From the IMG/VR virus record IMGVR_UViG_3300044641_000519: DNA of 64,000 bases. One strand, 5' to 3'. The position numbers and the translations under genes are program-made. The notes below the pieces were generated by a model. It did no database searches and was not told where the DNA came from. It was given only the letters and a program-made list of their open reading frames with translations. Positions within the stretch are counted from its first letter, which is position 1, and each line of letters starts with the position of its first letter. Source of the DNA: a virus (taxonomy: Duplodnaviria > Heunggongvirae > Uroviricota > Caudoviricetes). Below, in pieces: positions 18,001 to 58,084 of this stretch.

Positions 18001-20290
18001 CACTAGATCCACTTGTTGCACTTGTGCCACTAGTTCCTGCTGTACCACTAGATCCAGATGTAGCTGATGTACCAGATGTAGCAGATGAACCTGACGTACC
18101 TGACGTACCAGAACTTCCATTTGTTCCACTAGTTCCACTTGATCCACTAGTTCCAGAAGAAGCAGAGGTTCCACTTGATCCACTAGTACCAGAAGTGCCA
18201 GATGATCCAGATGTTGCTGAAGTACCACTAGATCCACTTGTTCCAGCTGTACCTGATGATCCACTAGTACCACTAGTACCGCTTGATCCATTAGTACCAG
18301 AAGTTCCAGACGTGCCAGAACTACCACTGGTAGCACTTGTTCCACTGGTGCCTGTTGTACCAGACGTACCAGAAGAGCCAGAGCTTCCACTTGTACCAGA
18401 GCTAGCTGACGTACCACTTGATCCATTAGTGCCAGCTGTACCAGCACTTCCAGATGTACCTGCTGTACCATCTCCACCAGATGCACCATCTAGATTGACA
18501 GTCCATGTACTATATGTACCAGAGCCTACAGTTCTGCTAGGAGCACCAAACTGAAGGGCTCCTGTATTAATATCATAAGAAATTACCTCACATTCTTGGA
18601 AATTTGCACTATCATACACTATGATGATAGACTGTGCTACTGTGTAGGCTAGTCCTGTACCAACTATGAGTGTCCCAGCGTTTCCTAATGTAAAAGATGT
18701 ATTTGATGTTGTTGCATATCTATCACCACTTAAACCAGCAGTTCCAGATGATCCAGAAGAACCAGATGTTCCTGAAGAAGCTGACGTACCTGAAGAAGCA
18801 GATGTACCACTAGTGGCACTTGTACCACTAGAACCTGATGTACCAGAGGTTGCACTTGTACCACTTGAGCCTGACGTTCCACTAGACCCAGATGTACCTG
18901 AAGATGCAGATGTACCACTGCTACCACTAGTTCCACTTGTACCACTACTACCACTTGTTCCAGAAGTTGCACTTGTTCCTGAACTTCCAGAAGTGGCTGA
19001 AGTTCCACTTGATCCACTGGTAGCACTAGTTCCACTAGAACCACTTGTTCCAGATGTTCCACTAGAGCCAGAAGATCCAGACGTAGCTGATGTACCACTA
19101 GACCCAGAGCTAGCACTTGTTCCACTTGTTCCAGAAGATCCACTTGTTGCAGACGTTCCAGAAGTTCCTGTTGTACCAGAAGACCCATCTGTACCAGATG
19201 TGCCACTAGTTCCAGTTGTACCTGATGACCCTGATGTACCAGAACTTCCATCAGTTCCTGAGGAACCTGATGTACCTGCTGTACCAAAATAGTTTCCTAA
19301 ACTACCATCACCTCTTATATATTGAGCAGTTGTACCATTTGCTATGACGTTGATTGTACCATTTGTTCCTGTTGCAGGGGCTCCCACTGTAAATGCTGAA
19401 GGCATAGTTAATCCTACAGAAACAAGAGTACCTACTGACCAACCTCTGTTAGCAGATAAATTATATGTAACATTATTAATTGTAAGTGTTCTAGTACTAG
19501 GAACAGGTACATATCCTAATACAGATTCAATATCAAGATTTGTAATAGGAGCAGCTGATGTAACTAATCCTTTTCCATTTACACCAAACTTTAAGAAAGT
19601 ATTACTTCCATAAATATTACTATTAACTGGTGCCAAAGTAAGAGTTACAGGAGATCCTGTCGTACCAGAACCTGTTACATCTCCTACAAAAGATAAAGAT
19701 GCAGAAGGAACAGATATAGTTACAGGAGTTATATTTGTAACACGTCCTTTACCATCCACAGTTACTCTAGGAACTTGTGTAGAAGAACCATATGTACCAG
19801 GAGCAGTATTAACTGTTGCTAATGTTAGCACAGCAGATCCAGGACCTGTTGCTGTACCATCTCCTGTTAAAGCAGAAATATAGTTTCCAGCAGGTTGATA
19901 TGGTGTATTATCTAAGCTACCATCACCCTTAACAAAATCTGAAGACGTACCACCAATTGTAACATGTTTACCAGCATATAAATCTCCTGTATATGTTAAA
20001 TCAAAACCTGCTGCTGTAATAATTGTATCATTATTCATAGTGCCACCAAGACCTACAGGTAATCCTGGTCCAGATTGAAAAACACCATTATTAAATAAAT
20101 ATCCTATTGCAGCTTCCTGAAACTTAGCATCTATTTTTTGTAGAGCAGTTTGGATGCTATCATTAGTATTGATGCCAGTGTATACTAAGTTAGCACCTTC
20201 GTAAAATACGCAAGTGGAATTCAGTATGACTGGACATGGTTCAGGGGAACAAAATACTGGAACTGATTCAGAAGAGCAAGATGGATCCAT
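12059..20290 (-). CDS. giant tail fibre (2743 aa) with N-terminal Cys-rich adaptor module, phage tail-fibre repeats, three collagen-like blocks, FN3-like segment
   Basis: N-terminus MDPSCSSESVPVFCSPEPCP...YTGINTNDSIQTALQKID shared with two other proteins; ...TAPGTYGSSTQVPRVTVDGKGRVTNITPVTI matches the classical phage tail fibre repeat (G.Y..VTVD.KGRVT); GATGYRVYKSN is FN3-like; ~900 residues of GTS/GSS triplets. Confidence 0.8.
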   Translation of the reverse strand: MDPSCSSESVPVFCSPEPCPVILNSTCVFYEGANLVYTGINTNDSIQTALQKIDAKFQEAAIGYLFNNGVFQSGPGLPVGLGGTMNNDTIITAAGFDLTYTGDLYAGKHVTIGGTSSDFVKGDGSLDNTPYQPAGNYISALTGDGTATGPGSAVLTLATVNTAPGTYGSSTQVPRVTVDGKGRVTNITPVTISVPSASLSFVGDVTGSGTTGSPVTLTLAPVNSNIYGSNTFLKFGVNGKGLVTSAAPITNLDIESVLGYVPVPSTRTLTINNVTYNLSANRGWSVGTLVSVGLTMPSAFTVGAPATGTNGTINVIANGTTAQYIRGDGSLGNYFGTAGTSGSSGTDGSSGTSGSSGTTGTSGTSGTDGSSGTTGTSGTSATSGSSGTSGTSASSGSSGTSATSGSSGSSGTSGTSGSSGTSATSGSSGTSATSGSSGTSATSGTSGSSGTSGTSGSSGTSASSGTSGSSGTSGSSGTSATSGTSGSSGTSATSGTSASSGTSASSGTSGSSGSSGTAGLSGDRYATTSNTSFTLGNAGTLIVGTGLAYTVAQSIIIVYDSANFQECEVISYDINTGALQFGAPSRTVGSGTYSTWTVNLDGASGGDGTAGTSGSAGTAGTNGSSGTSASSGTSGSSGSSGTSGTTGTSGTSATSGSSGTSGTSGTNGSSGTSGTSGSSGTAGTSGSSGTSATSGSSGTSGTSGSSGTSASSGTSGSSGTSGTNGSSGTSGTSGSSATSGTSATSGSSGTAGTSGTSATSGSSGTSGTDGSSGTSGTSGTSGSSGTNGSSGTTGTSGTSATSGTSGTSGSSGTGGTSGTNGSSGTSGTSGTSGSSGTVGTSGTSGTAGSSGTSATAGTSATSGTSATSGTSGSSGTSGTSGSSGTSATAGSSGTSATSGSSGTSASSGTSGSSGTTGTSGSSGTSATSGTSGSSGSSGTNGSSGTSGSTGTSGTSATSGTSASSGTSGSSGTSGTSGSSGTSATSGSSGSSGTSGSSGTSGTNGSSGTSATSGSSGTSATSGSSGTSGTKGTSGTSATSGTSGSTGTSGTSGSSGTSGTNGSSGTSATSGSSGTSATSGSSATSGTSATSGSSGTSATSGSSGTSGTNGSSGTSGTSASSGTSGSSGTSGTSGTSGSSGTSGTAGSSGVSGVAGGLLYYLNQSVNTNSAFGTPTYKEWSPIGTGAAEQTVVLSVTQNVRTLIATYATDSGVPNATNLPSGNWAWVTHFSINANVNVAVDIELYKYTTGGTSTLLGVTNLDTESLSSGVIKEFFTDLFLGQTALNATDRLYCQIYAQHNGGSANTITFYTEGTSNYSYAQTTFNPPSGTSGTSGANGTSGTSGTSGSSGTSASSGSSGSSGTSGTKGTSGTSATSGTSGSSGTSGTSGSSGTSATSGTSGSSGTSATSGSSGTAGTSGSSGSSATSGTSGSSGTSATSGSSGSSGTNGSSGTNGSSGTSGTSASSGTSGSTGTSGSSGTSGTKGTSGTSGTSATSGSSGSSGTSGTSGSSGTAGTNGSSGSSGTSGSTGTSGSSGTSGTKGTSGTSGTSGTSASSGSSGTSGTSGSSGTAGTNGSSGSSGTSGSSGTSATSGSSGSSGTSGTSGSSGTSGTSGSSGTAGSSGTAGTSGSSGTSVAVSGTTNTVAKFTSATTIGNSNITDNGTLITLGSDTAINGFTSGTVTKVLPAGNNFGSLENGASGNFTGSANGWNIISRQTWNINDDAFTYNGLTANDTRIIVNRSTTSGNGYVAFQGLINNSGTATQGAQYGIFIAVTQGNGNFGTVVGYKTGSTGPPTNTGTYTNYIGFETAFLPQNIANFYGLNINDHTATTISRAVNLNLSAGTGKFNIYAGGTADNYLAGALGIGTTSLTGYSLFVAKNITGASTAYGIAQAGFVLSDVTTNVFSNLSQLNTQAASFTLGTYFHYFATQGTIGAGSNITTQVGFAISSSMTGAGTNIAFQGQIPSGTNRWNLYMNGTAANYLAGDTGIGTTTLGTATQLTVGGTETAVSAISRGQLINTTLVASANGDNLVGLDIAPTFSVGAFTGVNLYAIRVAGTIVPSSSALFSLGNPSFNFIQGHIRQFLSSGTSGFEFYPAFATKSGQWFTTGNLLLQNGGTFTDAGFRLDVTGTTRLNGQATITGSTTAASGLAIGTIVTSTLVASANNDALVGLDINPTFTNGAFANNLNVAIRSLNHAAKFSKLLIGSLTVPTLNSAVGSASGGTLPAATYFYRIVAYDTEGLLTTGSNELSVVTTGSTSSVALSWSLVQGATGYRVYKSNVSNSYSSYISVFGVNTTTLTDTNQAVTSGTIPAVNNSSYGLFDSTRLRTNNITLVNNGIGQVASLTFEKSTDGASMNVVEYANDQTMYEFKLTDNPDTVQDFFHWFVGDWQNASSGWKPLKFAGFTSQFVGQNSNFWSSFSLPASTPYFTTNPDNLANATIKGDPYTSTTYNLVKDNGSGTGTLNVDVTGFTGSSNRIYWVTITSSTTFNWGLGSWTGTPSGTNVTITGAFQTLDSGVQVRLSVSGQLAGDRWAFRAFPVPRMGIGTTTPTAPFQVSTTVRPTSGTARGVFFNPTLVATANNDTLVGLDINPTFTNGAFTGVTNTAIRVAGNIIPSTDNTRTLGLSNFRWNNIYSAVIVVPSIYTRGIYSDTAAGVSILSNGGTRWSQWFETTGNLLIQNGGTYTEIPSARLAVNSTTQGFLPPRMTAAQRLAIASPETGLIVYQTDGVEGLWVKTSTSWREFTFI
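15340..19290 (-). repeat. coding collagen-like triplet repeat tracts (three blocks) in the 2743-aa fibre gene
   Basis: same periodic repeat family as 10775-11965; generates long antisense shadow ORFs (PLVPLVP...). Confidence 0.8.
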
Positions 20291-42300: not shown

Positions 42301-42471
42301 CCATGCTCCATTATAATTAAATCCTCTATTAGTTGTTCCTTCTCCTATCCAACCTGGGCCAGCAGTAGAATATCCTGCATTGGCATTCTCTTTTTTACCA
42401 TAGTTATCCTTAGTCTTCTTCTTTAAGATTAGTCCTCCTTGTTCGTATTTATTTAAAGATTTATTCTTCAT
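39343..42471 (-). CDS. 1042-aa internal virion protein with glycine-zipper hydrophobic segments (putative ejection/channel protein)
   Basis: GTAAGTLIGGPLGGLVGGLVGTAAGNLLGG (DNA ~41350-41440) is a Gly-zipper typical of membrane-inserting ejection/tape-measure-like proteins; N-terminal PGAVGFTYARVAG motif shared with the capsid protein. Confidence 0.45.
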   Translation of the reverse strand: MKNKSLNKYEQGGLILKKKTKDNYGKKENANAGYSTAGPGWIGEGTTNRGFNYNGAWGGTMQMGGSLPGAVGFTYARVAGSAPANGKYTKKTKASAQNGQEMKYYQEGLDFKPKTISKNGKKLSKAAMGKAMVNKQLHQLTEWEGVPKYYNGGPLDTSIISSYQPVGMPNMSALSGKLSDPGFQQQAIQQVESIQPKGGFDAAGAGMAALGAVPGIIAGVEAIGAQKKAKKKAEQATQLSGLALQAQQTTEKAKRKYVRPEDMILQPGQMGNPYGSGTNFLAKNGTMIGGNPTEIQNMYNPGDIYTDAGYEPIESQKLKQYKQGGNLPEAEFGEYFQDSGQAQIGSAVGTAAGTLIGGPLGGLVGGLVGTAAGNLLGGAKQARKLQAEKDKTSMNTQQAAFTQAQQNQFGAYMEQGGKVDVGDEYKWVSHTWQPQTITKFGEYNVKDLLKPPHDADMLRSGGHLKDEYYTPPSAAAMFTGRPELKPLTMEHGGKFAMGGDLEILDGGKAETISYNPFLPDGGETVMFKGRSHDNGGIPINFGENGVEVEGGEPAVKLRDGGNESNMVVFGNMKLSKMAADEFGIPDAKGKKFKHVANEISKVEKKQNKLIDQATERADMTTGSSGFDQLKMNTSEAQLMGANMKLRNAAILKQNLGAVQNAILDTASELGVKSDELAQGKLVKEKDPRMMAETGTNVPYSGTPFLDAPQLYPGPTPRELVTNIVSDALKGVPPTQEYTQIPYQPGFGSTSVLPEVTVTNDKLSSTANLSPISDIATSGKGKFDWKGLGQMALSNLAPYLRPRTNIGLDPEELYPEYFAMATNQLEPVQAQTFQPMLDTPMDISLNDQLNAIDSQSRAAIRAAGSNPAAQAMIMSQSLEAKNKVLGEQTRINAANKMQTYDKNRALLNDAKLKNLQILDQQYVRQAQARSNTKAQTLEALKSIAAKTAQNKLENQTLNVYENMYNYRFSPSGRAFNVNAPAQFNNPLVSAVQSMSPDDVSKLREVFEKSVSKDKAGIITGSKEKTRITKQSRNGAIVQALKNL

Positions 42472-43337
42472 TATTTATAAGATATTTGAGATGGTGCAAT
42501 AATAAATTGGCTAACTATATGTGCTTCAGAGCTATTGTCAAGGATGTGTCTCACCTTAAGATCCTTAGCTCTTAATGGTTCTTTCTTGAATGATCTTTTT
42601 CCATAATCCATATTCACTTGATTTACAAGTTTATCTATTGATAAAGTTTCACAACTTACTGTAAACAAAGGTAATGCTTTATTCTTAACTAACCCCCAGA
42701 ATGTATTGTATTGATAGAAGTTATCTGACTTAGTATAAGTGATAGTCTTGCTAAACTCATTGTATATAGGATAGGTTAAGTACTGACTTAGGTTATTGAT
42801 TGGCTTTGGTACAAGTTCTAATATACCTGTGGACTGTTGTCCATTGTATAGAACAGCTTTGTTAAACCATTGATTATCAACCTGTATCTGAGCATTGTCA
42901 TTAAACACACCATCTGGAATAGGTAAGTAATTAAACACCTTACTATAGTCTTTAACATTCTGAAGTATCTCATCATATGTTTGGTAAGCAAATGGATATT
43001 CAATTATGTATGGTTCTATATTACCATAGTATTTATTATAGTTAACCACATCTGTTAGATGTCTCCACATAGATCCTGTATTACATACAGTGTATTGTAA
43101 TGCAGCAAGTTGTTCTTTAGTAGCTGTACCAATTGTAACATTAATACTAGTAGAACATTTACCTTGAGATTGTATAACTATTGTAGTAACAGCATCAGCA
43201 ACACTTACAGTGTAACCATCAATAAGGTTTTGCTTAGTAATGTCAGTGCCCAAGACTGTCCCTAAGTTATCAGAGATATCAAAGGGTCCTGTTCTCCCAC
43301 CTGAACATGTCAATCTTATTATTACTGTTTTAGCCAT
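42471..43337 (-). CDS. hypothetical virion structural protein (288 aa)
   Basis: ORF coupled to its neighbours (ATGA overlap with the 1042-aa gene). Confidence 0.4.
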   Translation of the reverse strand: MAKTVIIRLTCSGGRTGPFDISDNLGTVLGTDITKQNLIDGYTVSVADAVTTIVIQSQGKCSTSINVTIGTATKEQLAALQYTVCNTGSMWRHLTDVVNYNKYYGNIEPYIIEYPFAYQTYDEILQNVKDYSKVFNYLPIPDGVFNDNAQIQVDNQWFNKAVLYNGQQSTGILELVPKPINNLSQYLTYPIYNEFSKTITYTKSDNFYQYNTFWGLVKNKALPLFTVSCETLSIDKLVNQVNMDYGKRSFKKEPLRAKDLKVRHILDNSSEAHIVSQFIIAPSQISYK

Positions 43338-49954: not shown

Positions 49955-50691
49955 TAGCTTGTTGGTTTTGCATTGGGAGCTTGTCCATCAATGCCATCAA
50001 ATGTTTGGTCTGTTTTAATGCTAAAGTATGTCGATAATAGTTTTTGAGAAGTAAGTTGTAACACTTGTGTTATTAAGTAACCAGGACATCCATATTCCTT
50101 GTCTAATGGATTTATACAATAATCTTCATCACTAACTTGAGGTATATTCCCACAAGCACAACCATCAGGATATAAAATGCTATTTGGAACATCTTCTTCA
50201 AAGAATGCAGATATTCTAACTGATTGTAAATTAGGATTGTTGATATATAAGTACCCACCATTTGCTATCCAATAGTATTGTTCAGCTTTGATAATAGGTA
50301 GTTTTAATAGATTTAAGTATCTATTGATTGTAATCTCTTTGAATCTTTTACCATTACCTCCCATAGCGTTTATAGAATAAACACCTTGGATTAAGTATTG
50401 ATAGTTTCCCTCACTGATGCGAGGAAGTTTATATCTGCTTCTTGCAACTTGACATGGTTCCACATATTCACAACAATCAGAGATGGGCACCTCTATCATT
50501 TCCAAACAAGGAAGTGTTTGGAATACAGTGTCAGTAGCCCAAAGCTTTCTGAGATTGGTCTCACGTTTGATTAGTAAAAGTGTGTTGTTCTTGATTTCAG
50601 ACGCAACTACTCTATCAGTAATTAGATTATCTGTAGTGAGCAATTTATGTACTGAACGTACATCTGAAACCATTTGTCTTAATGTTGCCAT
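49954..50691 (-). CDS. hypothetical Cys-rich protein (245 aa)
   Basis: ORF in operon; CCEYVEPC and DGCACGNIP Cys clusters. Confidence 0.35.
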   Translation of the reverse strand: MATLRQMVSDVRSVHKLLTTDNLITDRVVASEIKNNTLLLIKRETNLRKLWATDTVFQTLPCLEMIEVPISDCCEYVEPCQVARSRYKLPRISEGNYQYLIQGVYSINAMGGNGKRFKEITINRYLNLLKLPIIKAEQYYWIANGGYLYINNPNLQSVRISAFFEEDVPNSILYPDGCACGNIPQVSDEDYCINPLDKEYGCPGYLITQVLQLTSQKLLSTYFSIKTDQTFDGIDGQAPNAKPTS

Positions 50692-51941
50692 TATAAATAC
50701 TGTTTGAATATATTTGTCATTCCATCACAGTCATCTATTAAAAATCCTGTTACTTCTGCCTTGGACATTGTGTGACCCATCTTGTCGTCCCAAAGACTTT
50801 TAGCATTTGAAAATGCTGGAATTTGATAAAACTTTATACCATTAAAATCATGACTCACCTCATGGTGTTTGTCTCCTGTGAAGATGTAGAACTTGCTATG
50901 ACTAGACCAATGTTCTCTGAACTCTATTGGAAACAAGGCTGCAAGCTTAGCTGGTTTGATAGCATCTCCATGGTTAAACATCAATGCTGAATCACCATAG
51001 CTTACGTACTTTCTATACTTAGGAGAACAATCAAATGTTAATCTGTCTACGTTCCTGAAGTAGGTTTGTAACCAGTTAACCATATGCCATCCTACAAACT
51101 CATCATGATTACCTGCTACATAGACTACATTAACAGTCTGAGCATATTGTAATAACATTGTAATCATTAACACCTCATGTCCACAGATGTATTCAAAAGA
51201 TGTATGATATGTATGTGTGTTCTGTTGAGGAGTTCCTTTTGTAGTGGCATTGGTATACTCACTATTAAACTCATCAGATCCTATTATGTAAGTTATGTTT
51301 TCTAAGTTGTTGGATAACTGAGCTTGATTAGCTATCAGTTCCACCTTGTACATAATGTTAGCTAGTCTGTCTGCTACATTATTGTTACCATCTATGTCCC
51401 ATTTGTTTAAGTGAGAGTCTTGTTTGTTAATAAGTAACATACCATTTGGTTTGTTAAAATCAACCTTAGGGCTCATAACTTCTTGAGACACAGGCTTATA
51501 TGAAGCTAAAAAGTCTACAAACACATCTTGAAAAACTTGCTCTGTAGACTTCTTCCCTAACCATGCTTTGACTTGCCAATGAGGATTGTTTCCATTTCCC
51601 CAGAAGTTTTGGACATATTTAGTTATCTCCCACTTCTCTGTATCTATCTTACATTTCTCAATGAGTTCATCAAGACTTTTAACTTCTTCACTAAAATTAG
51701 CTACAACCTCTCCTGTACCCTTAGCCAAATCTTCTGTAAACTTAATCACTGCATTTTCTAACTCAGCAACGTAGTTTCCTATCTCAGCAGCTTCTTCACT
51801 TTGTTCTTGATTTCTTAATTCTTTTAATAGCTCATCCACCTCAAACTCTGTAATTCCAAGCTTATCAGCATAGAACTTTTTACTTTTTTTCCAGTGTAGA
51901 ATCTCTTCTAGCTGTTGTAGCAAGGATTGATTTTCAGGCAT
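50691..51941 (-). CDS. calcineurin-like metallophosphoesterase (phosphatase/nuclease superfamily)
   Basis: DSH (motif I), GSDEF (II-like), VAGNHDE (motif III GNH[DE]), GDKHHEVSHD (GH..H-like) in canonical order; first gene after the terminator/promoter junction. Confidence 0.55.
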   Translation of the reverse strand: MPENQSLLQQLEEILHWKKSKKFYADKLGITEFEVDELLKELRNQEQSEEAAEIGNYVAELENAVIKFTEDLAKGTGEVVANFSEEVKSLDELIEKCKIDTEKWEITKYVQNFWGNGNNPHWQVKAWLGKKSTEQVFQDVFVDFLASYKPVSQEVMSPKVDFNKPNGMLLINKQDSHLNKWDIDGNNNVADRLANIMYKVELIANQAQLSNNLENITYIIGSDEFNSEYTNATTKGTPQQNTHTYHTSFEYICGHEVLMITMLLQYAQTVNVVYVAGNHDEFVGWHMVNWLQTYFRNVDRLTFDCSPKYRKYVSYGDSALMFNHGDAIKPAKLAALFPIEFREHWSSHSKFYIFTGDKHHEVSHDFNGIKFYQIPAFSNAKSLWDDKMGHTMSKAEVTGFLIDDCDGMTNIFKQYL

Positions 51942-52051
51942 ATGTAGTTTAGTTTAGTTAAAATTACTGTAAAGGTAAGAACTATTTCTGACATTTTCAA
52001 AATTTTACTAACTAATTTAATTATATAGAATAACTTTTTTAGTTAGAGTTT
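51942..52051 (-). promoter_or_regulatory. AT-rich putative promoter region for the metallophosphoesterase-to-cargo transcription unit
   Basis: intergenic, >80% AT, follows a terminator; contains a near-match AAATTTTG to the Bacteroidota -7 consensus (TAnnTTTG), no exact match. Confidence 0.3.
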
Positions 52052-52084
52052 AAACAAAAACCCCCAGGGTAGAAACCCTAGGGG
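52052..52084 (-). terminator. rho-independent terminator after the fibre/adaptor gene set
   Basis: minus-strand hairpin CCCCTAGGGT-TTCT-ACCCTGGGG (plus coordinates 52062-52084) immediately followed by TTTTTGTTT; 40 nt downstream of the stop at 52124; followed by a 110-nt AT-rich region leading to the next ATG at 51941. Confidence 0.6.
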
Positions 52085-52123
52085 AGACCTTCTGTAAACC
52101 AACAAACAGAGGTTTTTAACTAT

Positions 52124-52777
52124 TTATGAACTACAGCTAGCATTTAGACTAAATGAACCAGAGCTAGTGAAACAGTTCACTGTGTCTGTTCTTAAGCGAT
52201 AGCTACCTGCAGATAATGTGTTAAGAGCTAAATCAGATGTCCAACTGCCTGGAGCAGAGCCTACCTGAGTATAGTTGAATGTGTACAACACTGTATCATT
52301 AGCAGCATTCATAATGTATGCTGTATAAGTTCTTGTACCACTTCCAGAGTAGTAATATCCACCAGGAGTGATTAGAGCTGTATTTCCTGCAGTCACTGTG
52401 AACAGAGCTGATTCTCCACCTGCACATGATGCCACAGCACTTGTATCACCAGTTAAACATGCTGGAACTGGTGTAGTTGATGTACTTGTTGTAGAAGTAG
52501 AAGAAGTACTAGTAGTTGTAGTGGTTGTTGCACCACTTAAAAGCATATCTAGATAATTTGTACAAGTGCCTGTAGATTGTGCTCTGATGATAGATGCTAT
52601 ATCTGGTACACCTGCAAGACTGTATCCTGCTATTAATGCAGCTCTAGATACTCCTGTTGCTAATGGTGTAGTATATCCATCTACATTTGAAAAAAGATTG
52701 AAGGGGCCTACATCTGTCCCTGCTAAAGTTAATGTTACTAATACTGTCATAATTTTTTTTATTTTATGGACACTCAC
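52124..52777 (-). CDS. two-domain fibre-tip-like protein with central poly-Thr/Ser linker (GTG start at 52777 or ATG at 52750)
   Basis: N-domain + TTTTTTSTSSTSTTSTSTT linker + C-terminal Cys-containing beta-rich domain; the GTG start overlaps the upstream 86-aa gene, the ATG alternative does not. Confidence 0.45.
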   Translation of the reverse strand: MSVHKIKKIMTVLVTLTLAGTDVGPFNLFSNVDGYTTPLATGVSRAALIAGYSLAGVPDIASIIRAQSTGTCTNYLDMLLSGATTTTTTSTSSTSTTSTSTTPVPACLTGDTSAVASCAGGESALFTVTAGNTALITPGGYYYSGSGTRTYTAYIMNAANDTVLYTFNYTQVGSAPGSWTSDLALNTLSAGSYRLRTDTVNCFTSSGSFSLNASCSS

Positions 52778-53024
52778 TCAATAGGTTACAAAGAATACTT
52801 TTTAACTGTACGTTATTTCCAATAGCAGTTAAAATTGCTTGTGCTAGTGCTGTTGGGTCCAGTTCACTATCTATTTTTTCAATAGCAACTGTTAGACAAT
52901 CATGTGTTTGAATGCCTGAATAAGGTAAGTTAGGTCCGCTATAATATACGCAATTTGAATTAATCTCAGAACAGCAATCATTTGATTGATATCCTCCACA
53001 GTTCATTCCTGGTAAACAAGCCAT
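52764..53024 (-). CDS. stand-alone Cys-rich fibre N-terminal adaptor module (86 aa)
   Basis: MACLPGMNCGG..CCSEINSNCVYYSGPNLPYSGIQTHDCLTVAIEKID is homologous to the N-termini of the 2743-aa and 376-aa fibre proteins. Confidence 0.5.
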   Translation of the reverse strand: MACLPGMNCGGYQSNDCCSEINSNCVYYSGPNLPYSGIQTHDCLTVAIEKIDSELDPTALAQAILTAIGNNVQLKSILCNLLSECP

Positions 53025-53043
53025 TTATTGTTGGTTTAATATA

Positions 53044-54174
53044 TTAAGGAATATACATAATGTAATATGCACCTATCACAGGTTGGATATTTGCATGTGC
53101 TGCTCCGCTACCTGTAGATTCTACTGTAACAGATGTACTTGTAGAAGCCACTGTAATACCTGTTGTACTAGTTACAGCTTGGATATCTTTAGGAGATGTA
53201 TTACCAACAGCAATTGTTCCACCACCACCAGTTACACCACTCTGTCCAATAGCATGTGTATGACCTGGGTCATTTAATGTAACAGTTGTATTTGCTACAG
53301 CATTGTGGGCATGTGCAGGTAGTTGTGGTGTAGTTAAAGTTATAGTATTTGATCCTGCTGTGGTGTACAAAGAATAGTTTGGGTTGCCAGCATTAGCTGG
53401 ATTTACCGCAGCATCTAAAGGAGCACCTGGTACATTGTTAATAGCACCAACTGCTACACGTCCTCTTTTATCAGGAGTGCCATTTAATCCATTACACAAA
53501 TACACTTTAAAGAAACCATTGGCTGGGATACCAATGCCTGATCCATCAAAGTTAGCTAGTGTTCCATAGTATTCATAGGCTACATAAGGAACCATTTTTA
53601 AATACTGTTGGTTAGAGTTACCACTACCTTGACCAGCTATATAAGCTGCAATTAAAGCATCTAAGTCTGCAAGTTTAACATAGTTTGTATCTACATCAAG
53701 TTCAAGAGCAGCTAGGTCAGCTACTGTTGTACAAAGCTTATTTATAATAGCTTGGACAATAGCATGTGTATCTGAGCTAGATGTTACTCCTGTTAAACAA
53801 CCAATTGTATAGTCAGCATTTAATGTAGTTATATCAGCAGCAACTGCAGTTATTTGAGTTTGTAAGTCACAAACTACTTTAACTAATGTTTGGAACAATT
53901 GTTCAGAAGTCCACTGATTTGTACCTACAGGAGTAGGTAAGTAACCATTTACAATTGCACAACGTATAACTGATGCAATAGTAATTTTGTCACCTGTTCC
54001 ACTTAACAAAGGAACTAGTTTATCAATTATATTTTCTATAACTAATTGAAGATTATCTCCAGATGTTATATCTAAAGGTACACTATCAAGACCTGTATAT
54101 GTAACACATTGATCAGATACAACTTGTACGCATCCATTATAACAAGGTTCAGGAGGGCAATTTGAACAAGACAT
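53044..54174 (-). CDS. tail fibre/receptor-binding protein with N-terminal Cys-rich adaptor module and C-terminal HxH motifs
   Basis: N-terminus MSCSNCPPEPCYNGC..VTYTGLDSVPL.. ; C-terminal PAHAHNAV, GHTHAIG, AAHANIQ HxH repeats reminiscent of metal-binding tips of T4 gp37/gp12-type fibres. Confidence 0.55.
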   Translation of the reverse strand: MSCSNCPPEPCYNGCVQVVSDQCVTYTGLDSVPLDITSGDNLQLVIENIIDKLVPLLSGTGDKITIASVIRCAIVNGYLPTPVGTNQWTSEQLFQTLVKVVCDLQTQITAVAADITTLNADYTIGCLTGVTSSSDTHAIVQAIINKLCTTVADLAALELDVDTNYVKLADLDALIAAYIAGQGSGNSNQQYLKMVPYVAYEYYGTLANFDGSGIGIPANGFFKVYLCNGLNGTPDKRGRVAVGAINNVPGAPLDAAVNPANAGNPNYSLYTTAGSNTITLTTPQLPAHAHNAVANTTVTLNDPGHTHAIGQSGVTGGGGTIAVGNTSPKDIQAVTSTTGITVASTSTSVTVESTGSGAAHANIQPVIGAYYIMYIP

Positions 54175-54181
54175 TTTTAAT

Positions 54182-54448
54182 TTATTTATGAATTAACACT
54201 TTAACTCTACTAGCTATTTGGGACACAGTGAATCTTATGGCATAATCTGGATTACAATATTTATAGGTTAATATCCTTTTGTAATTCAAAAGATCACCAA
54301 TCACAGGACCAGGCAGATAGTTAGTCATGGAGAAGATGATATTGTTGTATTCTTGTTTAGCTAGATCTGTAAGTTTACAATCAATATCAGTAAGTAAAGC
54401 AGGAATGCTAGCACATTCTATACAGTTAGTTAATCTTGGCTGTAACAT
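54182..54448 (-). CDS. hypothetical small protein (88 aa)
   Basis: ORF in operon. Confidence 0.35.
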   Translation of the reverse strand: MLQPRLTNCIECASIPALLTDIDCKLTDLAKQEYNNIIFSMTNYLPGPVIGDLLNYKRILTYKYCNPDYAIRFTVSQIASRVKVLIHK

Positions 54449-54560
54449 ATTTAATCAGATTTGTAGCTTGTTTTGCAGCATAATTACATGCTGAACATAA
54501 GCCATTAATTAATTGACATCCACAGCCCACTTTGGTTCCACAATTTCTACAGTTTGCCAT
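54426..54560 (-). CDS. unlisted 44-aa Cys-rich small protein (MANCRNCGTKVGCGCQLINGLCSACNYAAKQATNLIKYVTAKIN)
   Basis: hand-translated from the minus strand; ATG lies 1 nt after the stop of the upstream 201-aa gene (TAAgATG coupling); 7 Cys in 24 residues; fills an otherwise empty 113-nt gap; overlaps the start of the 88-aa ORF out of frame. Confidence 0.4.
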   Translation of the reverse strand: MANCRNCGTKVGCGCQLINGLCSACNYAAKQATNLIKYVTAKIN

Positions 54561-54561
54561 C

Positions 54562-55167
54562 TTAATAAAAATTTATAATATAATTATTTCCTGTGCAACC
54601 ACAGTTATTTCTAATAAAGTTATTTAACATGCGATCTGCTTGCATGTATAGTTTGTTTGCTGTATCTACAGCACAGTTATTTGCAGCAGCTATTGATCCT
54701 GAAATCATGTAGTAAATACTATTTAAGTTTACCTTTGCTTGTGTTCTAATAGCTGAATCACACTCCATTAAGTCAAGTTTCATAAATGCATTATCAAACT
54801 TCTCTTGTATCAATTCAGTACGCATAATGTTCTTTTCTACATTATAAGTTAGAGCAGGAGCAACTGTATATTTTAAATAGTAAATACCATCTGGTAAAGG
54901 AATCAAAGGTTCACCAACAGCAGACAGTCCTAAAGATGTAGAATTGAATATATTAAACTCATTAGGAGTGAAAGGTAAAGAAACCACCCCAAAGTTAGGA
55001 ACAGTGATTTCTATTGTAGGGGCAGTTACAACAGGAGGATTTGTATCATATGTTGATGCATCAGCAACACCCAAAGTTAAAGTGTTGTAAGTTGGTATTA
55101 CTAGTATATCTAAGACCATGTTATTTAAAATAATAATGCCAGAGGATTTGAGAATTAATCCTCTCAC
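54562..55167 (-). CDS. hypothetical virion structural protein (201 aa)
   Basis: ORF in operon. Confidence 0.4.
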   Translation of the reverse strand: MRGLILKSSGIIILNNMVLDILVIPTYNTLTLGVADASTYDTNPPVVTAPTIEITVPNFGVVSLPFTPNEFNIFNSTSLGLSAVGEPLIPLPDGIYYLKYTVAPALTYNVEKNIMRTELIQEKFDNAFMKLDLMECDSAIRTQAKVNLNSIYYMISGSIAAANNCAVDTANKLYMQADRMLNNFIRNNCGCTGNNYIINFY

Positions 55168-55202
55168 CCTCTGGCATAGGTTAATATGATGCTACCTTTT
55201 TC

Positions 55203-56363
55203 TTAAGGGATCAAAGTAGTTGTTGTTGATGTAGAAGGCCATACAGTAGTTGTAGTGCTAGTTGTAGTGATACAAGCTGTGTCACCTGCAACAGCTCCTA
55301 AAGCAGCTACTAAGACAGCTTCAATCGCACTTGTTTGATTCTCAGGAACAGCAATGATTACCATGCTATCTTCCATGATATAGTCACCCCATTGGTAAGC
55401 ACTCTTATCATACTCATTGAATTTGATATAGTACAAATCATAGATCTGACCATCAGTTACCCAAGACTCAAAGTTCTCGTTGTAACCATTCATTCTGTAT
55501 AAATGTTTTAAGTAACCAGCTTGGTAGCTATAGAAGTTCTTCTCTAATTGTTGAACTTCAGCAGAAGTACCAACAGCATAGTTAGATCTTTGACGAATGA
55601 TTGGCTCAGCAACTCTGTTACAAGGATCATCAACAATGAAGTCAGCAGTTGTAGCTGGACCAGCAAAGATGAAAGTTCTGAAGTAGAATCTGTCATACTC
55701 AAAAGGGAATGCAGCAACATCACAAGGCTGACCATATTTAGTTAATGGCTTACCAGTAATACGTAAGAATGCACTTTGATTGTTACCAAGTCTTTGGAAT
55801 TGATAGAAATCACTCAAATAGATATTGTCTGGGTTGTCACCAGGAGCTCTAGATTCTAACTTAAGAATCAAAGCATCAATCAATGCAGGCACATCTACAT
55901 CTGTACAAGGATCACCACCACATTCTAAACATGGAGCGTTTACTGTTACAGAACGAGTGAAACCATTGAAGTACAATGTGTTCAAGTAGCTAGAGAAACC
56001 ACGTAAAGTTAAGGTGATAATTTCACCTGGTTTTACTGTGAAATCAACTACGTCAGTTACTTGATTCACTGGAGTAGGACAGCCTAAAGACTTGTACCAC
56101 TCAGTTACGTTTGAAGTACATCCAGATCCACTAGGACATCCTTTGATCTTGTCAGATCTTTTAGAGCCTTGTAAATACGTGTTTGTTCTACCTTGAGCAA
56201 CATAGAAATAAGGGGCAGCAGCAATGTTACCAGATGTGGCAACAGTGTAGTCATTTAGGAAAATACCTACTTGACCAGCTGTTAAATTCTGTGTAGATCC
56301 AGAGCTAGGTAATGTGTTTCCTACTGGTACTACAAAGAGGGTGGTTAGTGAAAAATCCGCCAT
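55203..56363 (-). CDS. virion structural protein (386 aa) with C-terminal Thr-rich tail
   Basis: ends ...TTTSTTTTVWPSTSTTTTLIP. Confidence 0.4.
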   Translation of the reverse strand: MADFSLTTLFVVPVGNTLPSSGSTQNLTAGQVGIFLNDYTVATSGNIAAAPYFYVAQGRTNTYLQGSKRSDKIKGCPSGSGCTSNVTEWYKSLGCPTPVNQVTDVVDFTVKPGEIITLTLRGFSSYLNTLYFNGFTRSVTVNAPCLECGGDPCTDVDVPALIDALILKLESRAPGDNPDNIYLSDFYQFQRLGNNQSAFLRITGKPLTKYGQPCDVAAFPFEYDRFYFRTFIFAGPATTADFIVDDPCNRVAEPIIRQRSNYAVGTSAEVQQLEKNFYSYQAGYLKHLYRMNGYNENFESWVTDGQIYDLYYIKFNEYDKSAYQWGDYIMEDSMVIIAVPENQTSAIEAVLVAALGAVAGDTACITTTSTTTTVWPSTSTTTTLIP

Positions 56364-56390
56364 TTTGTTTTATATTTAAATTGTAAAAAA

Positions 56391-57122
56391 TTATTCGTTT
56401 GTTTGTATCCTATAGATTGAGCTTTGAACAGCACTTTGGTTTTCTGTATACATTGCCAAGTTCTGTACTGTCAAATCTAATAACTCATCTTCTAAGTAAG
56501 TCTCAAGTTCACAGTTTTGATCAGTAGAAGGTAATCCATCTAACATGATATATCCTGTCTTGTTAATGTACACTGGATATCTCATATATGATATGTAAAT
56601 ATCTTTTGGTGTAAACGTACCATCTGTAAATACAGATATCTCATCAGAAGATAAAAAGTTAAATGTCTCTTGATATTCAAAAGAAGGCTTGTAGTTATCA
56701 TTAGTTAATATGAACTGAATGTCACCATGCTTAGCCAAATCTCTATTTATCCATATCTTTCTATCTGTACATCTTCCTTTGTCTGCTAATATATAACTAT
56801 CAAGATAGAACATATATTTTGGAGTCAAAGTATTAAGACTTGCAAAGTATTGATTTAACTCATCATTCTTTAACACTAATGGCAAAGGTTGATGGTTATA
56901 GGTGATAACTAAACTTTGAAGGTCTTCATAGCGTTTTTTAAACGCATCCAACCCATAACCAGAGTTTGTACTAGTACCATCAACCTTTTGCTTTATTAGC
57001 TTTATCTGAGCTTCGTTAAGTGCTAGAATCTTATCTTCTAGGTTAATTTGTTGATGCTCGTTTGTTGATAGTTTATTTAGTTTCTGATCAATCTTATATA
57101 ATAAACTATCTACTGGGATCAT
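56391..57122 (-). CDS. hypothetical virion structural protein (243 aa)
   Basis: ORF in operon, 4-nt overlap with the upstream gene. Confidence 0.4.
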   Translation of the reverse strand: MIPVDSLLYKIDQKLNKLSTNEHQQINLEDKILALNEAQIKLIKQKVDGTSTNSGYGLDAFKKRYEDLQSLVITYNHQPLPLVLKNDELNQYFASLNTLTPKYMFYLDSYILADKGRCTDRKIWINRDLAKHGDIQFILTNDNYKPSFEYQETFNFLSSDEISVFTDGTFTPKDIYISYMRYPVYINKTGYIMLDGLPSTDQNCELETYLEDELLDLTVQNLAMYTENQSAVQSSIYRIQTNE

Positions 57123-58084
57123 AATGAGGCTATTTTTTTTCCTTTCAATTTGCCTTCCAAAGTCAATAACTGATCTTGGTTGTCTTCATCTGCAAGGAAT
57201 TTAACTAAATCATCTTCGTCAACTGCTATTTCAAATTCACCTTCGAAAACTCTACCATTAGGTCTCACTCTATAAATTGAATGAGCAACAGCTTGTTTTA
57301 CTAGGTCTTTAATATGGAGCAAGTTTTCTTTCATATCTGCAAATCTGTTGAACACTTCTATTGGATTCAAACCTTGATATTTGCCATTCTTGAATTCTGT
57401 TTGTTTTAGGAGGTTATCCACCTGATTGTAAACTGCTTCTTCTTTAGAATCATCAGATACTGGAAGACCAAGTAGACGAGCCACTTTCTTCTTCTTCTCA
57501 GGAGTCATAGAATCAAACTTAATAATAGCTTTATTAATAAGTTGCTTCTTTTTAAACATCACCTTGTTTTCAATCTCATCATCTGCAACATAATATTGAA
57601 TGTCTGCAGGATATTCACCACGCTCCCAAGCTTGATAGCTAGAAGCAATTGTTGGATGAACTCTTAACCATGAGAATGCTAGCTCTTGCAATGGCATTGA
57701 CAAATCATAAAAATTGTCGCCATCCATAAGCTTAACAGGTTGTACGTGTAATGAATCATCAGTAGACGTTGATAAGCCATAGTTCCAGAAAGTAGAACGA
57801 GGACTTAAGTCAACATTTAATGCTGCTTCAAGTTTATCTCTTAATTCTGTTACTCTTTCAACCTCCATCTCTCTTTCAAGAGGATCAGAGATTCTTCTGA
57901 TGTAAGCAGCCTTTGGATCTAAGCCTGTTCTGTACTGACCATCCAATTCTTTATAAGGATATTTGAAAACTCCTGTACCAGGAATTCTTGTGTACCCTCT
58001 TGATGCAAGTCCACCTTGCATTGTTTGTAATTGAGAATTGTTGTAATCTTTTTTAATAGTAGAGATTTTTCCTATCTTGCCCAT
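57119..58084 (-). CDS. hypothetical virion structural protein (321 aa), first gene after the capsid-gene hairpin region
   Basis: ORF in operon. Confidence 0.4.
   Translation of the reverse strand: MGKIGKISTIKKDYNNSQLQTMQGGLASRGYTRIPGTGVFKYPYKELDGQYRTGLDPKAAYIRRISDPLEREMEVERVTELRDKLEAALNVDLSPRSTFWNYGLSTSTDDSLHVQPVKLMDGDNFYDLSMPLQELAFSWLRVHPTIASSYQAWERGEYPADIQYYVADDEIENKVMFKKKQLINKAIIKFDSMTPEKKKKVARLLGLPVSDDSKEEAVYNQVDNLLKQTEFKNGKYQGLNPIEVFNRFADMKENLLHIKDLVKQAVAHSIYRVRPNGRVFEGEFEIAVDEDDLVKFLADEDNQDQLLTLEGKLKGKKIASL

What the first reader, a model, noticed from the sequence alone, without database searches (positions are those of the whole stretch)
52764..53024. Conserved N-terminal Cys-rich adaptor domain used three times, once as a stand-alone 86-aa ORF
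The N-termini of the 2743-aa fibre (20290 side: MDPSCSSESVPVFCSPEPCPV..CVFYEGANLVYTGINTNDSIQTALQKID), the 376-aa HxH fibre (54174 side: MSCSNCPPEPCYNGC..CVTYTGLDSVPLDITSGDNLQLVIENIIDKL) and the free-standing 86-aa protein (MACLPGMNCGGYQSNDCCSEINSNCVYYSGPNLPYSGIQTHDCLTVAIEKID) share a C-x-x-C/PC...C..Y.G.NL.Y.GI.T.D.L..A..KID pattern. This looks like a common virion-docking module, possibly Zn-binding, onto which different distal fibres are grafted. The stand-alone copy sits directly upstream of a gene encoding only a linker plus a tip domain (52124-52777). This suggests a split fibre, either two-chain assembly or the remnant of a gene fission.
Basis: seen in the sequence. Interest (0 to 1): 0.6.

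Follow-up and report, generated by a model that had tools for sequence, protein, structure and literature searches.

The report
Anchor-only fibre stub in crAss-like phage
The 86-aa ORF is a real, conserved gene of an environmental crAss-like phage that encodes only the N-terminal module with which this phage group appears to mount its very variable fibres and adhesins on the virion; it is not half of a broken gene.

Summary
The window is the structural block of a crAss-like phage. The 86-aa protein shares a real N-terminal module with the 2743-aa collagen-like fibre. An HMM built without any window sequence gives E 7.7e-12. The link to the 376-aa tail-collar fibre is weaker (hhalign prob 86%, E 4.7e-6).

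The module belongs to a large family with no annotation. There are 1003 clusters at 50% identity and 501 IMG/VR loci, with no Pfam, PHROG or PDB match. It sits at residue 1 in 266 of 277 members.

About 40% of members are stand-alone proteins of 80-130 aa. The rest carry a poly-Thr/Ser linker plus lectin-like domains, or a collagen fibre with an S74 chaperone.

All of the roughly 80 related loci keep one hypervariable slot: 376-type fibre, then the module gene, before the phosphoesterase and ring-2 genes. Stand-alone copies evolve under purifying selection (dN/dS mostly 0.02-0.3).

The "split fibre" idea fails. The downstream protein starts at ATG 52750 and is 208 aa. It has its own conserved N-domain, shared with the 288-aa protein after the muzzle gene. 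It follows fused module genes as often as stand-alone ones.

The docking function is inferred, and the docking site (tail collar favoured) is untested.

The parts
52764..53024 (-). 86-aa 'anchor-only' gene, the finding itself. Cys-rich N-terminal arm aa 1-25 (52950-53024); core aa 26-55, CVYYSGPNLPYSGIQTHDCLTVAIEKID (52860-52949); helical hairpin closed by C79..C85, aa 56-86 (52767-52859); TAA stop 52764-52766.
   Evidence: ORF and sequence. Independent family HMM E 1.4e-26 over the full length. AF2 model (pLDDT 74): residues 1-16 disordered, short strands then helices 44-54, 57-70, 72-83. Orthologues are under purifying selection.
20111..20290 (-). Module core at the N-terminus (aa 1-60) of the 2743-aa collagen-like giant fibre (gene 12059-20290).
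   Evidence: blastp E ~1e-9. Independent HMM E 7.7e-12, matching HMM positions 20-73 only. Collagen Pfam hit E 1.2e-16 and tail-fibre PHROGs. Orthologous N-termini in L006, L007 and L008.
53935..54174 (-). Divergent copy of the module (aa 1-80, core plus a 'C..IV' helix) at the N-terminus of the 376-aa HxH / tail-collar-type fibre (gene 53044-54174).
   Evidence: blastp E 1e-3 to 1e-2. hhalign prob 86%, E 4.7e-6. C-terminal part: phrog_8469 tail fiber E 1e-15, Gp10_C weak at E 0.0026. BFVD relative named 'Phage tail collar domain-containing protein'.
52124..52750 (-). 208-aa downstream gene, an independent appendage protein. Conserved N-domain aa 1-73 (52532-52750); S/T linker aa 74-95 (52466-52531); variable beta-sandwich aa 96-208 (52127-52465).
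   Evidence: Start at ATG 52750, as in relatives. N-domain 63% identical to the L004 homologue while the C-domain is unrelated. AF2 model. Weak lectin/CBM-like fold matches, E ~1e-2, not significant.
43122..43337 (-). N-terminal ~72 aa of the 288-aa protein (gene 42471-43337, directly after the muzzle gene). This is a second copy of the 208-type N-domain ('module 2').
   Evidence: blastp 33% over 75 aa, E 1e-7. Alignment A7. A 208N-type protein after the muzzle gene recurs in many related loci.
52061..52084 (-). Intrinsic-terminator-like hairpin (10-bp stem, 7 GC pairs, T tract) closing the transcription unit after the 208-aa gene.
   Evidence: sequence.
54182..55119 (-). Context: a 185-aa protein (54562-55119), a 44-aa Cys-rich protein (54426-54560) and an 88-aa protein (54182-54448). 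They lie where crAss001 has its tail-hub genes gp38/gp39 and are candidate docking partners.
   Evidence: Synteny with crAss001: gp34, gp40, gp42 and gp43 equivalents found by blastp and Pfam Ring_1/Ring_2/MUZ in relatives. Direct similarity is weak only: 185-aa family vs gp38 hhalign P 0.0037; 88-aa family vs gp39 P 0.04. All three are present in essentially all ~80 related loci.

Best explanation
The 86-aa ORF is a genuine, selected gene. It encodes the minimal, anchor-only member of a large, so far unannotated family of N-terminal domains in environmental crAss-like phages.

The domain has three elements:
- a Cys-rich N-terminal arm (M-x-C-[LV]-P-G-x-P-C...);
- a short beta-hairpin plus helix core (Y-x-G-P-N-L-P-x-T-G-I-x-T-x-D-x-L-T-x-A-L-x-K-I-D);
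- a helical hairpin closed by C-x(4-7)-C.

It always sits at residue 1. It most likely plugs the protein into a fixed socket of the virion, while whatever follows it is exposed.

In related phages the same genomic slot holds this domain in three forms: alone; joined through a poly-Thr/Ser linker to lectin-like or adhesion domains; or, as core only, joined to a collagen-like fibre with a C-terminal S74 chaperone. The slot is therefore a hypervariable appendage or receptor-binding locus. In this phage the distal part is simply absent.

The stub probably fills its socket, most likely on the tail collar or hub, because the gene lies next to the hub-position genes and the tail-collar-type fibre. 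It may stabilise that site by disulfide or metal cross-links.

The 2743-aa fibre and, more distantly, the 376-aa fibre use paralogous versions of the module, each conserved as its own lineage. This suggests paralogue-specific sockets. The 208-aa protein downstream is a separate appendage protein with a second, unrelated N-terminal module that it shares with the 288-aa protein after the muzzle gene.

Shown: homology, family size, N-terminal position, variable C-termini, conserved slot, purifying selection, independence from the 208-type gene.

Inferred: the docking function, the site, and the role of the cysteines.
For: - The window is crAss-like: Crass_capsid, P22_portal, CrAss_Ring_1, CrAss_Ring_2 and crAss_MUZ in syntenic relatives. 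Ring, IHF and R2 equivalents match crAss001 by blastp.
- Homology of the copies.
- Family size: 1003 clusters at E<=1e-3 and 216 at <=1e-10 in 1.84 billion representatives; 62 of the best 150 are <=133 aa. There are 501 relatives in IMG/VR.
- Only one locus was found in the genomes of 185,579 bacterial and archaeal species, and that is a crAss-like contig apparently mis-binned into an archaeal MAG.
- N-terminal position: 266 of 277 members. Terminal Cys pair: 156 of 169. S/T linker directly after the domain: 37 of 44 long members.
- C-terminal parts: Lcl_C, Fib_succ_major, Laminin_G_3, and collagen plus Peptidase_S74.
- Slot conservation: the order 386aa-185aa-44aa-88aa-376 fibre-module gene-(0-2 208-type genes)-phosphoesterase-R2 holds in all of the roughly 80 loci. 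The slot holds 46 distinct module proteins of 80-809 aa.
- dN/dS of stand-alone genes is mostly 0.02-0.3.
- In crAss001 the first 26 residues of tail fibre gp22 dock into the hub, and the first 38-58 residues of the small head fibres gp21 and gp29 dock into hexon pockets. Disulfides stabilise the hub (PMC10172136). N-terminal plug-in of fibres is thus the established mode in this order.
- The AF2 model leaves the Cys-rich arm (aa 1-16) disordered, as expected for a segment that orders only on binding.
- A 100-aa truncated giant-fibre stub that keeps the module is found on at least 25 contigs.
Against: - No structure, proteomics or interaction data exist for any member.
- The fold has no match in PDB or BFVD beyond its own relatives, so 'docking' rests on architecture and analogy.
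- The hub identity of the neighbouring genes rests on synteny plus weak hhalign scores only.
- There is no sequence similarity to crAss001 gp21, gp22 or gp29, and no module copy in the crAss001 structural block.
- A protein made only of an anchor has no obvious benefit unless the anchor is structurally needed or serves as a base for something else.
- Some members (for example L005 / P0074) lack the terminal Cys pair, so the cysteines are not universally required.
Confidence: 0.6

Rival explanations
1. Two-chain fibre or adapter. The 86-aa protein is a stand-alone adapter, comparable to K1-5/SP6 gp37, an anchor that lost its own receptor-binding part. The 208-aa protein binds to it non-covalently through its conserved N-domain.
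For: The two genes are 13 nt apart in one transcription unit that ends at a terminator. 16 of 23 complete stand-alone loci have a 208-type gene 9-23 nt downstream. The 208-type proteins have a conserved N-domain and swapped C-domains, as attachable receptor-binding proteins do. There is precedent for adapters derived from truncated anchors (PMC6872550).
Against: 208-type genes follow 12 of 13 fused module genes too, including collagen forms that lack the helical hairpin. 7 of 23 stand-alone loci have no 208-type gene in the slot. Module-to-208N pairwise distances correlate poorly across loci (rho 0.17); the module gene correlates better with the 88-aa protein (0.49), and 208N with the 185-aa protein (0.55). 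The same N-domain also heads the 288-aa protein next to the muzzle gene, which suggests that module 2 has its own socket.
Confidence: 0.2
2. Same module, different site. It anchors capsid decoration or head fibres in hexon pockets, like crAss001 gp21/gp29, T4 Hoc or T5 pb10, rather than tail appendages.
For: The small size (80-130 aa) resembles crAss001 head fibres gp21 (97 aa) and gp29 (122 aa), which bind by their N-termini. The layout anchor + flexible S/T linker + small lectin/Ig-like display domain is typical of capsid decoration proteins (own knowledge of Hoc and pb10).
Against: The gene lies between the hub-position genes / tail-collar fibre and the ring genes. Slot variants include collagen fibres with an S74 intramolecular chaperone, and the module heads a tail-collar-type HxH fibre; both are classical tail-fibre features. 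There is no similarity to gp21 or gp29.
Confidence: 0.15
3. Tail-fibre assembly chaperone for the upstream 376-aa fibre. Small genes directly downstream of fibre genes often have this role.
For: Its position immediately after a tail-fibre gene, and its small size.
Against: It is homologous to the N-termini of structural fibres. In relatives it is fused to collagen fibres and adhesion domains. There is no hit to any chaperone family in Pfam or PHROGs.
Confidence: 0.04
4. Artefact or decaying remnant: either a frameshift error splitting one gene, or a dead stub of a deleted fibre gene.
For: Truncated stubs do occur in this family, for example the 100-aa L007 stub of the giant fibre and anchor + poly-Thr + stop mini-ORFs. 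The A8 run lies close to the junction.
Against: The identical 86-aa protein is on 8 contigs and a cluster mate on 9, from NCBI, JGI, ENA and Logan. The two-ORF layout persists in relatives with only about 50-70% protein identity, with different spacers and frame offsets. dN/dS is mostly 0.02-0.3. The A run lies after the stop codon. The downstream protein has its own conserved start, MTVL[VI]TLT.
Confidence: 0.02

Closest known systems
N-terminal hub-docking segment of crAss001 tail fibre gp22, and the N-terminal hexon-pocket anchors of head fibres gp21/gp29 (Bayfield et al. 2023, PMC10172136)
   Same: Same virus order. Appendages attach through their extreme N-terminus. The small (97-122 aa) fibre proteins exist as separate genes. 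The hub region is cross-linked by disulfides. The module gene here lies next to the genes that occupy the gp38/gp39 hub position.
   Different: No detectable sequence similarity. Here the anchor is a roughly 55-95 aa Cys-rich folded domain, not a 26-58 residue segment. It is re-used by three genes in one genome and combined with poly-Thr linkers. crAss001 has no gene between THB and R2.
Anchor / adapter / conserved-peptide architecture of podovirus receptor-binding proteins (T7 gp17 N-domain; K1-5/SP6 gp37 adapter; KP32-type 'anchor with truncated protein'; Latka et al. 2019, PMC6872550)
   Same: A conserved N-terminal attachment module with exchangeable distal domains. There is precedent for anchors that have lost their receptor-binding part and persist as short proteins. 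Several receptor-binding proteins occur per virion, each with a conserved N-terminal tag.
   Different: No homology to T7 gp17-N or to T4gp10-like docking domains (no Pfam hit). At 86 aa it is far smaller than gp37. There is no evidence that anything docks onto it.
Capsid decoration proteins with an anchor + linker + display domain (T4 Hoc, T5 pb10); comparison from own knowledge
   Same: A small anchor domain, a flexible linker and Ig/lectin-like display domains. The distal part is dispensable.
   Different: Genomic context and the collagen/S74 and tail-collar variants point to the tail. No sequence or fold similarity was found.
Uncharacterised proteins of Virus NIOZ-UU157 (UniProt A0A7S9XGT0 108 aa, A0A7S9XG85 368 aa 'Phage tail collar domain-containing protein', A0A7S9SU90)
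   Same: These are the only BFVD structure matches to the AF2 model. The same trio appears (small protein, tail-collar fibre, giant protein), so they are probably true relatives.
   Different: The matches are weak (E 0.05-0.35). The proteins carry no functional annotation, and no paper on them was found.

Membership tests
New family: crAss-like 'CPGxPC...YxGPNLPxTGI...QKID...CxxxxxC' N-terminal domain (unnamed) | Full-length match to a profile built from family members other than the query | tested here: met
   An HMM from 26 distant stand-alone members (no window sequence) matches the 86-aa protein at E 1.4e-26 over HMM positions 1-98.
New family: crAss-like 'CPGxPC...YxGPNLPxTGI...QKID...CxxxxxC' N-terminal domain (unnamed) | Domain located at the extreme N-terminus, in the conserved slot after the 376-type fibre | tested here: met
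   It starts at residue 1. The slot order is identical in all of the roughly 80 related loci.
K1-5/SP6 gp37-type adapter protein | T7 gp17-like N-terminal anchor followed by a T4gp10-like domain that offers docking sites | tested here: not met
   No Pfam or PHROG hit at E<=1 for the 86-aa protein. 86 aa leaves no room for a T4gp10-like domain.
K1-5/SP6 gp37-type adapter protein | Physically carries separately encoded receptor-binding proteins through their conserved N-termini | not testable with these tools
   No multimer prediction was available. The indirect test, co-variation of the module with the 208-type N-domain, gave rho 0.17, and 208-type genes also follow fused forms.
crAss001 gp22-type tail-fibre N-terminus (hub docking) | Sequence similarity to gp22 residues 1-26 | tested here: not met
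   blastp finds no N-terminal match. The family HMM finds nothing in the crAss001 structural block.
crAss001 gp22-type tail-fibre N-terminus (hub docking) | Binds a THA2-THB hub on rings R1/R2 | tested here: inconclusive
   The genes at the THA/THB position are conserved neighbours, but their homology to gp38/gp39 is weak (hhalign P 0.0037 and 0.04). Binding itself is not testable here.
crAss001 head fibres gp21 (HFT) / gp29 (HFD) | Sequence or fold similarity to gp21 or gp29 | tested here: not met
   No blastp hit. Foldseek against PDB, which should include any deposited crAss001 virion models, returns nothing at E<=0.001. The profile search of PDB sequences is negative.
Tail-fibre assembly chaperones (Tfa-type) | Match to a known chaperone family | tested here: not met
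   No Pfam or PHROG family for the 86-aa protein or for 24 family members.
Zinc-binding Cys4 mini-domain | Four conserved, suitably spaced Cys ligands; bound metal | tested here: inconclusive
   C3 and C9 are invariant, and C19, C80 and C86 are >=90% conserved in alignment A5. A terminal C-x(4-7)-C occurs in 156 of 169 members. The number of conserved Cys is odd, some members lack the terminal pair, and the N-terminal arm is not modelled confidently. Disulfides are equally possible. Metal content is not testable here.

The most novel reading that the evidence does not exclude
Environmental crAss-like phages may build their appendage set from two orthogonal plug-and-socket systems. Module 1 is used by the giant fibre, the tail-collar fibre and the slot gene. 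Module 2 is used by the 208- and 288-type proteins. On this reading, anchor-only proteins such as the 86-aa one are not passive stubs. They are selected 'socket fillers' or competitors that set how many sockets are occupied by long fibres or adhesins, a genetically encoded way of tuning appendage stoichiometry. Alternatively they co-assemble with fibre chains. The tandem of a stand-alone and a fused copy (L091), and the two extra mini-copies upstream of the giant fibre (L006), would fit this.
Probability: 0.12. Interest if true: 0.7.

Novelty: new member of a known kind. Interest (0 to 1): 0.45.

Why it matters
Receptor-binding and adhesion proteins of crAss-like phages are almost entirely unannotated, and for the environmental lineages no host-recognition gene is known. 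This module is a simple sequence tag: one HMM, always at residue 1. It flags the appendage genes of a whole lineage (at least 1000 protein clusters) and pinpoints a hypervariable locus. At that locus collagen fibres, lectin-like adhesins and bare anchors replace each other between conserved flanks.

That gives a handle for host-range prediction, for engineering by domain swapping behind the anchor, and for interpreting future cryo-EM maps of marine and freshwater crassviruses. It also corrects a tempting but wrong annotation ('split fibre'). The practical value is mainly for annotation; no new principle is shown.

Tried and rejected
- blastn (distant mode) of 50001-58000 and tblastn of the 86-aa protein against 50,697 GenBank phage records gave no match. 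The first 200 aa of the giant fibre hit only generic tail-fibre repeats at residues 130-200, not the module.
- Pfam, PHROGs, PDB sequence search (single sequence and profile), Foldseek against PDB and Foldseek against BFVD found no annotated relative.
- The 185-aa protein against PDB sequences gave nothing.
The THA identity could therefore not be tested by fold.
- hhalign of the 185-aa, 88-aa and 386-aa families against crAss001 gp38, gp39 and gp36 was weak or negative.
- Searching homologues of the 208-aa N-domain with the word-indexed search returned only 5 short proteins. Its distribution was recovered instead from the fetched loci.
- The genome-contig scan with the broad alignment failed for lack of a conserved stretch. 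It was repeated with a narrower alignment.
- Programmed frameshift or readthrough joining the 86- and 208-aa genes was considered and rejected. There is no slippery site before the stop, the A run lies after it, and the frame offsets differ among relatives.
- Recent duplication or recombination between the three copies was rejected, because they share no DNA similarity.
- P0235 (2353 aa, 10 'stretches') is a spurious repetitive match, not a family member.
- Literature searches found no paper describing this module.
Full report
**What the window is.** All large ORFs from about 4 kb to 64 kb lie on the minus strand. Relatives found through the 86-aa protein carry P22_portal, Crass_capsid, CrAss_Ring_1, CrAss_Ring_2 and crAss_MUZ Pfam domains in the same gene order. 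blastp links the window's 243-, 245-, 158- and 324-aa proteins to crAss001 gp34 (ring 4/5), gp40 (R2), gp42 (IHF-like) and gp43 (R1).

The window is therefore the structural block of an environmental crAss-like phage of about 35% GC. No GenBank phage record is close to it.

Reading downstream on the minus strand, the local gene order is:
- major capsid protein (58275-59828), then 321 aa, then 243 aa (ring-like), then 386 aa;
- 185 aa (54562-55119), 44 aa and 88 aa, which sit where crAss001 has its tail-hub genes gp38/gp39;
- the 376-aa fibre, the 86-aa gene and the 208-aa gene, followed by a terminator;
- a 416-aa phosphoesterase, then R2, IHF-like, R1 and the muzzle gene.

**Check of the observation.** The 86-aa ORF and the three quoted N-termini are as described.
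- Against all 738 stop-to-stop ORFs of the window, the 86-aa protein matches only the N-termini of the 2743-aa protein (43% identity over 44 aa, E about 1e-9) and the 376-aa protein (E 1e-3 to 1e-2). Both matches are in register.
- An HMM built from 26 distant stand-alone relatives, excluding every window sequence and its near relatives, scores the 2743-aa N-terminus at E 7.7e-12. It does not reach the window's 376-aa protein.
- A profile of four 376-type N-termini matches the small-protein profile with hhalign probability 86% and E 4.7e-6.
- 376-type proteins also keep a '...NP..YC.LV...' element that aligns with the C-terminal helix of the small family.
- The similarity is therefore homology, not composition. 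It is firm for 86 vs 2743 and probable but distant for 376.
- At DNA level the three copies share nothing, so they are old paralogues.

**The 86-aa gene is not an artefact.**
- The identical protein occurs on 8 contigs, and a cluster mate on 9, from four data sources.
- Relatives with about 50-85% identity are also 80-113 aa.
- In L001, L004 and L010 the small gene and the following gene are separated by 23, 11 and 12 nt, with frame offsets that differ from the window's.
- In the window the TAA (52766-52764) is followed by AATAAAAAAAATT and then ATG 52750. In every relative the downstream protein begins MTVL[VI]TLT. The true downstream gene is therefore 52124-52750 (208 aa), not the mechanical GTG ORF from 52777.
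- Pairwise dN/dS among 32 distinct stand-alone genes is mostly 0.02-0.3.

**The family.**
- The word-indexed search with a module alignment gave 173 hits, nearly all 60-105 aa.
- The exhaustive profile search of 1.84 billion representatives gave 1003 clusters at E<=1e-3 and 216 at <=1e-10.
- Of the best 150, 62 are <=133 aa. The others range up to 1460 aa, and the match almost always starts at residue 1.
- Among the 277 family proteins retrieved here, 266 start the domain within 10 residues of the N-terminus. 156 of 169 full-length domains end in C-x(4-7)-C. 37 of 44 long members continue directly with an S/T-rich linker.
- After the linker come small Cys-containing beta domains, Lcl_C (DUF1566)-like, Fib_succ_major and Laminin_G_3 domains.
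- A second architecture uses only the core (HMM positions 1-64). It is followed at once by collagen repeats and a Peptidase_S74 chaperone (573-809 aa) or by the giant fibre, as in the window.
- In P0250 and P0259 about 350 residues are inserted between the core and the terminal Cys-pair hairpin. The hairpin is thus a separable sub-element.
- Pfam, PHROGs and PDB have no family for the module, and every source name seen is 'hypothetical protein'.
- In the genomes of 185,579 bacterial and archaeal species, the two peptide patterns found a single locus. It is a crAss-like contig binned into a Woesearchaeota MAG. As far as this scan shows, the family is confined to phages.

**The slot.** IMG/VR holds 501 relatives. 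In the 80 loci fetched, together with the other slot loci (L001, L002, L004, L005, L009, L010), the order 386aa-185aa-44aa-88aa-376 fibre-module gene-(0-2 '208-type' genes)-phosphoesterase-R2 does not vary.

The module gene itself has 46 distinct versions from 80 to 809 aa: anchor-only, anchor + linker + domain(s), or core + collagen + S74. This is the signature of a hypervariable appendage or receptor-binding locus between conserved flanks. The window carries the minimal allele.

Module stubs also occur at the giant-fibre locus:
- L006 has 59-aa (module + poly-Thr) and 61-aa (module + coiled coil) genes directly upstream of a giant fibre that has its own module.
- L007 keeps only a 100-aa stub of the giant fibre, and that stub is seen on at least 25 contigs.

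**The 'split fibre' idea.**
- The 208-aa protein has a conserved N-domain (aa 1-73; 63% identical to the L004 homologue), an S/T linker, and a C-domain that is unrelated between relatives.
- AF2 gives a beta-rich N-domain (pLDDT 74-89), a disordered linker and a low-confidence beta-sandwich. Its lectin/CBM-like fold matches are weak and not significant.
- The same N-domain heads the 288-aa protein after the muzzle gene (E 1e-7), in the window and in many relatives.
- 208-type genes follow 16 of 23 complete anchor-only loci and 12 of 13 fused loci.
- L009 has a 477-aa fused module protein followed by a 159-aa 208-type gene. L091 has a 95-aa anchor-only gene, a 312-aa fused paralogue and a 198-aa 208-type gene in a row.
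- The 208-aa gene is therefore not the detached C-terminal half of the 86-aa gene.
- A non-covalent complex cannot be excluded, but it gains no support. Across 21 non-redundant loci the pairwise distances of the module and the 208-type N-domain correlate at rho 0.17. The module correlates at 0.49 with the 88-aa protein, and 208N at 0.55 with the 185-aa protein. This is a crude analysis confounded by phylogeny and gives a lead only.

**Structure.** AF2 with a 38-sequence alignment gives pLDDT 74. Residues 1-16 (the Cys arm) are disordered. Short strands lie around residues 26-43, followed by helices 44-54, 57-70 and 72-83. Foldseek finds nothing in PDB. In BFVD it finds only weak hits, to three proteins of Virus NIOZ-UU157: a 108-aa protein, a 368-aa 'tail collar domain' protein and a giant one, which is the same trio as in the window.

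**Most likely mechanism.** In crAss001, appendages attach by their N-termini:
- gp22 residues 1-26 dock into the THA2-THB hub on rings R1/R2;
- gp21 residues 1-38 and gp29 residues 1-58 dock into hexon pockets;
- the hub is disulfide-linked (PMC10172136).

By analogy, and given the invariant N-terminal position, the exchangeable C-termini and the neighbourhood, I take the module to be a virion-attachment plug. The tail collar is favoured as the site for two reasons. The gene lies between the hub-position genes and the ring genes. Its allelic and paralogous forms are classical tail fibres (collagen + S74 chaperone; HxH tail-collar domain). The capsid alternative (Hoc- or pb10-like decoration) remains open.

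The three paralogues are each conserved as separate lineages across phages. This suggests paralogue-specific sockets rather than competition for one socket.

The conserved cysteines may form disulfides or bind metal. These are C3 and C9, one in the variable loop, and the terminal pair. Neither possibility could be tested.

An anchor-only protein under purifying selection implies one of two things. Either occupancy of the socket matters in itself, for stability or assembly, or the stub serves as a base for another component.

**Comparison with known systems.** The concept is established: T7 gp17-type anchors, K1-5/SP6 adapters that are anchors without a receptor-binding domain, and KP32-group 'anchor with truncated protein' (PMC6872550). 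The window's protein is not a member of any of those families. It lacks T7-like and T4gp10-like domains and has no similarity to crAss001 gp21, gp22 or gp29. It is a sequence-novel domain family that fits a known kind of system.

**Verdict.** The docking-module interpretation is supported by comparative evidence, although it is still an inference. The fission and frameshift interpretation is rejected. The two-chain assembly is unsupported but not excluded. Interest is moderate: this is a useful marker for the unannotated appendage and host-recognition genes of environmental crassviruses, and it points to a second re-used N-terminal module.

Noticed in passing
window 54426-54560 (-): A 44-aa ORF with 7 Cys (MANCRNCGTKVGCGCQLINGLCSACNY..., pattern CxxC..CxC..CxxC). 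It overlaps the start of the 88-aa gene. A 40-52 aa homologue is present in nearly all of the roughly 80 related loci, between the two hub-position genes. It may be a zinc-ribbon-like mini-protein of the tail hub region. No Pfam hit.
   Followed up: partly
window 42471-43337 (-) and 52532-52750 (-): A second re-used N-terminal module. The first ~72 aa of the 288-aa protein (directly after the muzzle gene) and of the 208-aa protein are homologous (33% identity, E 1e-7). 208N-type proteins of 82-832 aa occur once or twice per slot and again after the muzzle gene in relatives.
   Followed up: partly
window 50691-51941 (-): A 416-aa metallophosphoesterase-like protein (phrog_704 'DNA repair exonuclease', E 3.6e-45) is conserved inside the tail gene block of every relative. 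It is preceded by a terminator (52084-52061) and a spacer of about 180 nt. This is an odd place for a nuclease-like enzyme.
   Followed up: no
window 12059-20290 (-), especially 15300-19300: The collagen-like, GC-richer part (GC 0.43-0.46) of the 2743-aa fibre carries long antisense ORFs of 208-536 aa. These are almost certainly mechanical by-products of GXY-repeat coding.
   Followed up: no
L006 7805-8200 onward: Three consecutive genes all start with the module: 59 aa (module + poly-Thr), 61 aa (module + short coiled coil), and a giant fibre of more than 2663 aa. The 61-aa protein is recorded in 38 blocks of the collection, and 24 contigs carrying it were read.
   Followed up: partly
L005 7445-7999: A 184-aa HNH-endonuclease-like gene is inserted between the 376-type fibre and the anchor-only gene. 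That locus has no 208-type gene, and its anchor lacks the terminal Cys pair.
   Followed up: no
L091 (CAYGYN010000003.1): A 13-kb contig labelled 'Candidatus Woesearchaeota archaeon' MAG is a crAss-like phage fragment and is probably mis-binned. It carries a 95-aa anchor-only gene and a 312-aa fused paralogue in tandem.
   Followed up: partly
P0023, P0114, P0122, P0264, P0265; L006 7805-7984; L008 1627-1875: Many mini-ORFs consist of an anchor domain (module 1 or module 2) plus a poly-Thr tail and then a stop. They could be real 'tail-only' proteins or products of slippage or assembly error in ACN repeats. This remains unexplained.
   Followed up: no
L007 8373-11325: Where the giant fibre is truncated to a 100-aa stub, the following genes encode sulfotransferases, a methyltransferase and an APS kinase. 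This is a sulfation gene cluster in a crAss-like phage.
   Followed up: no
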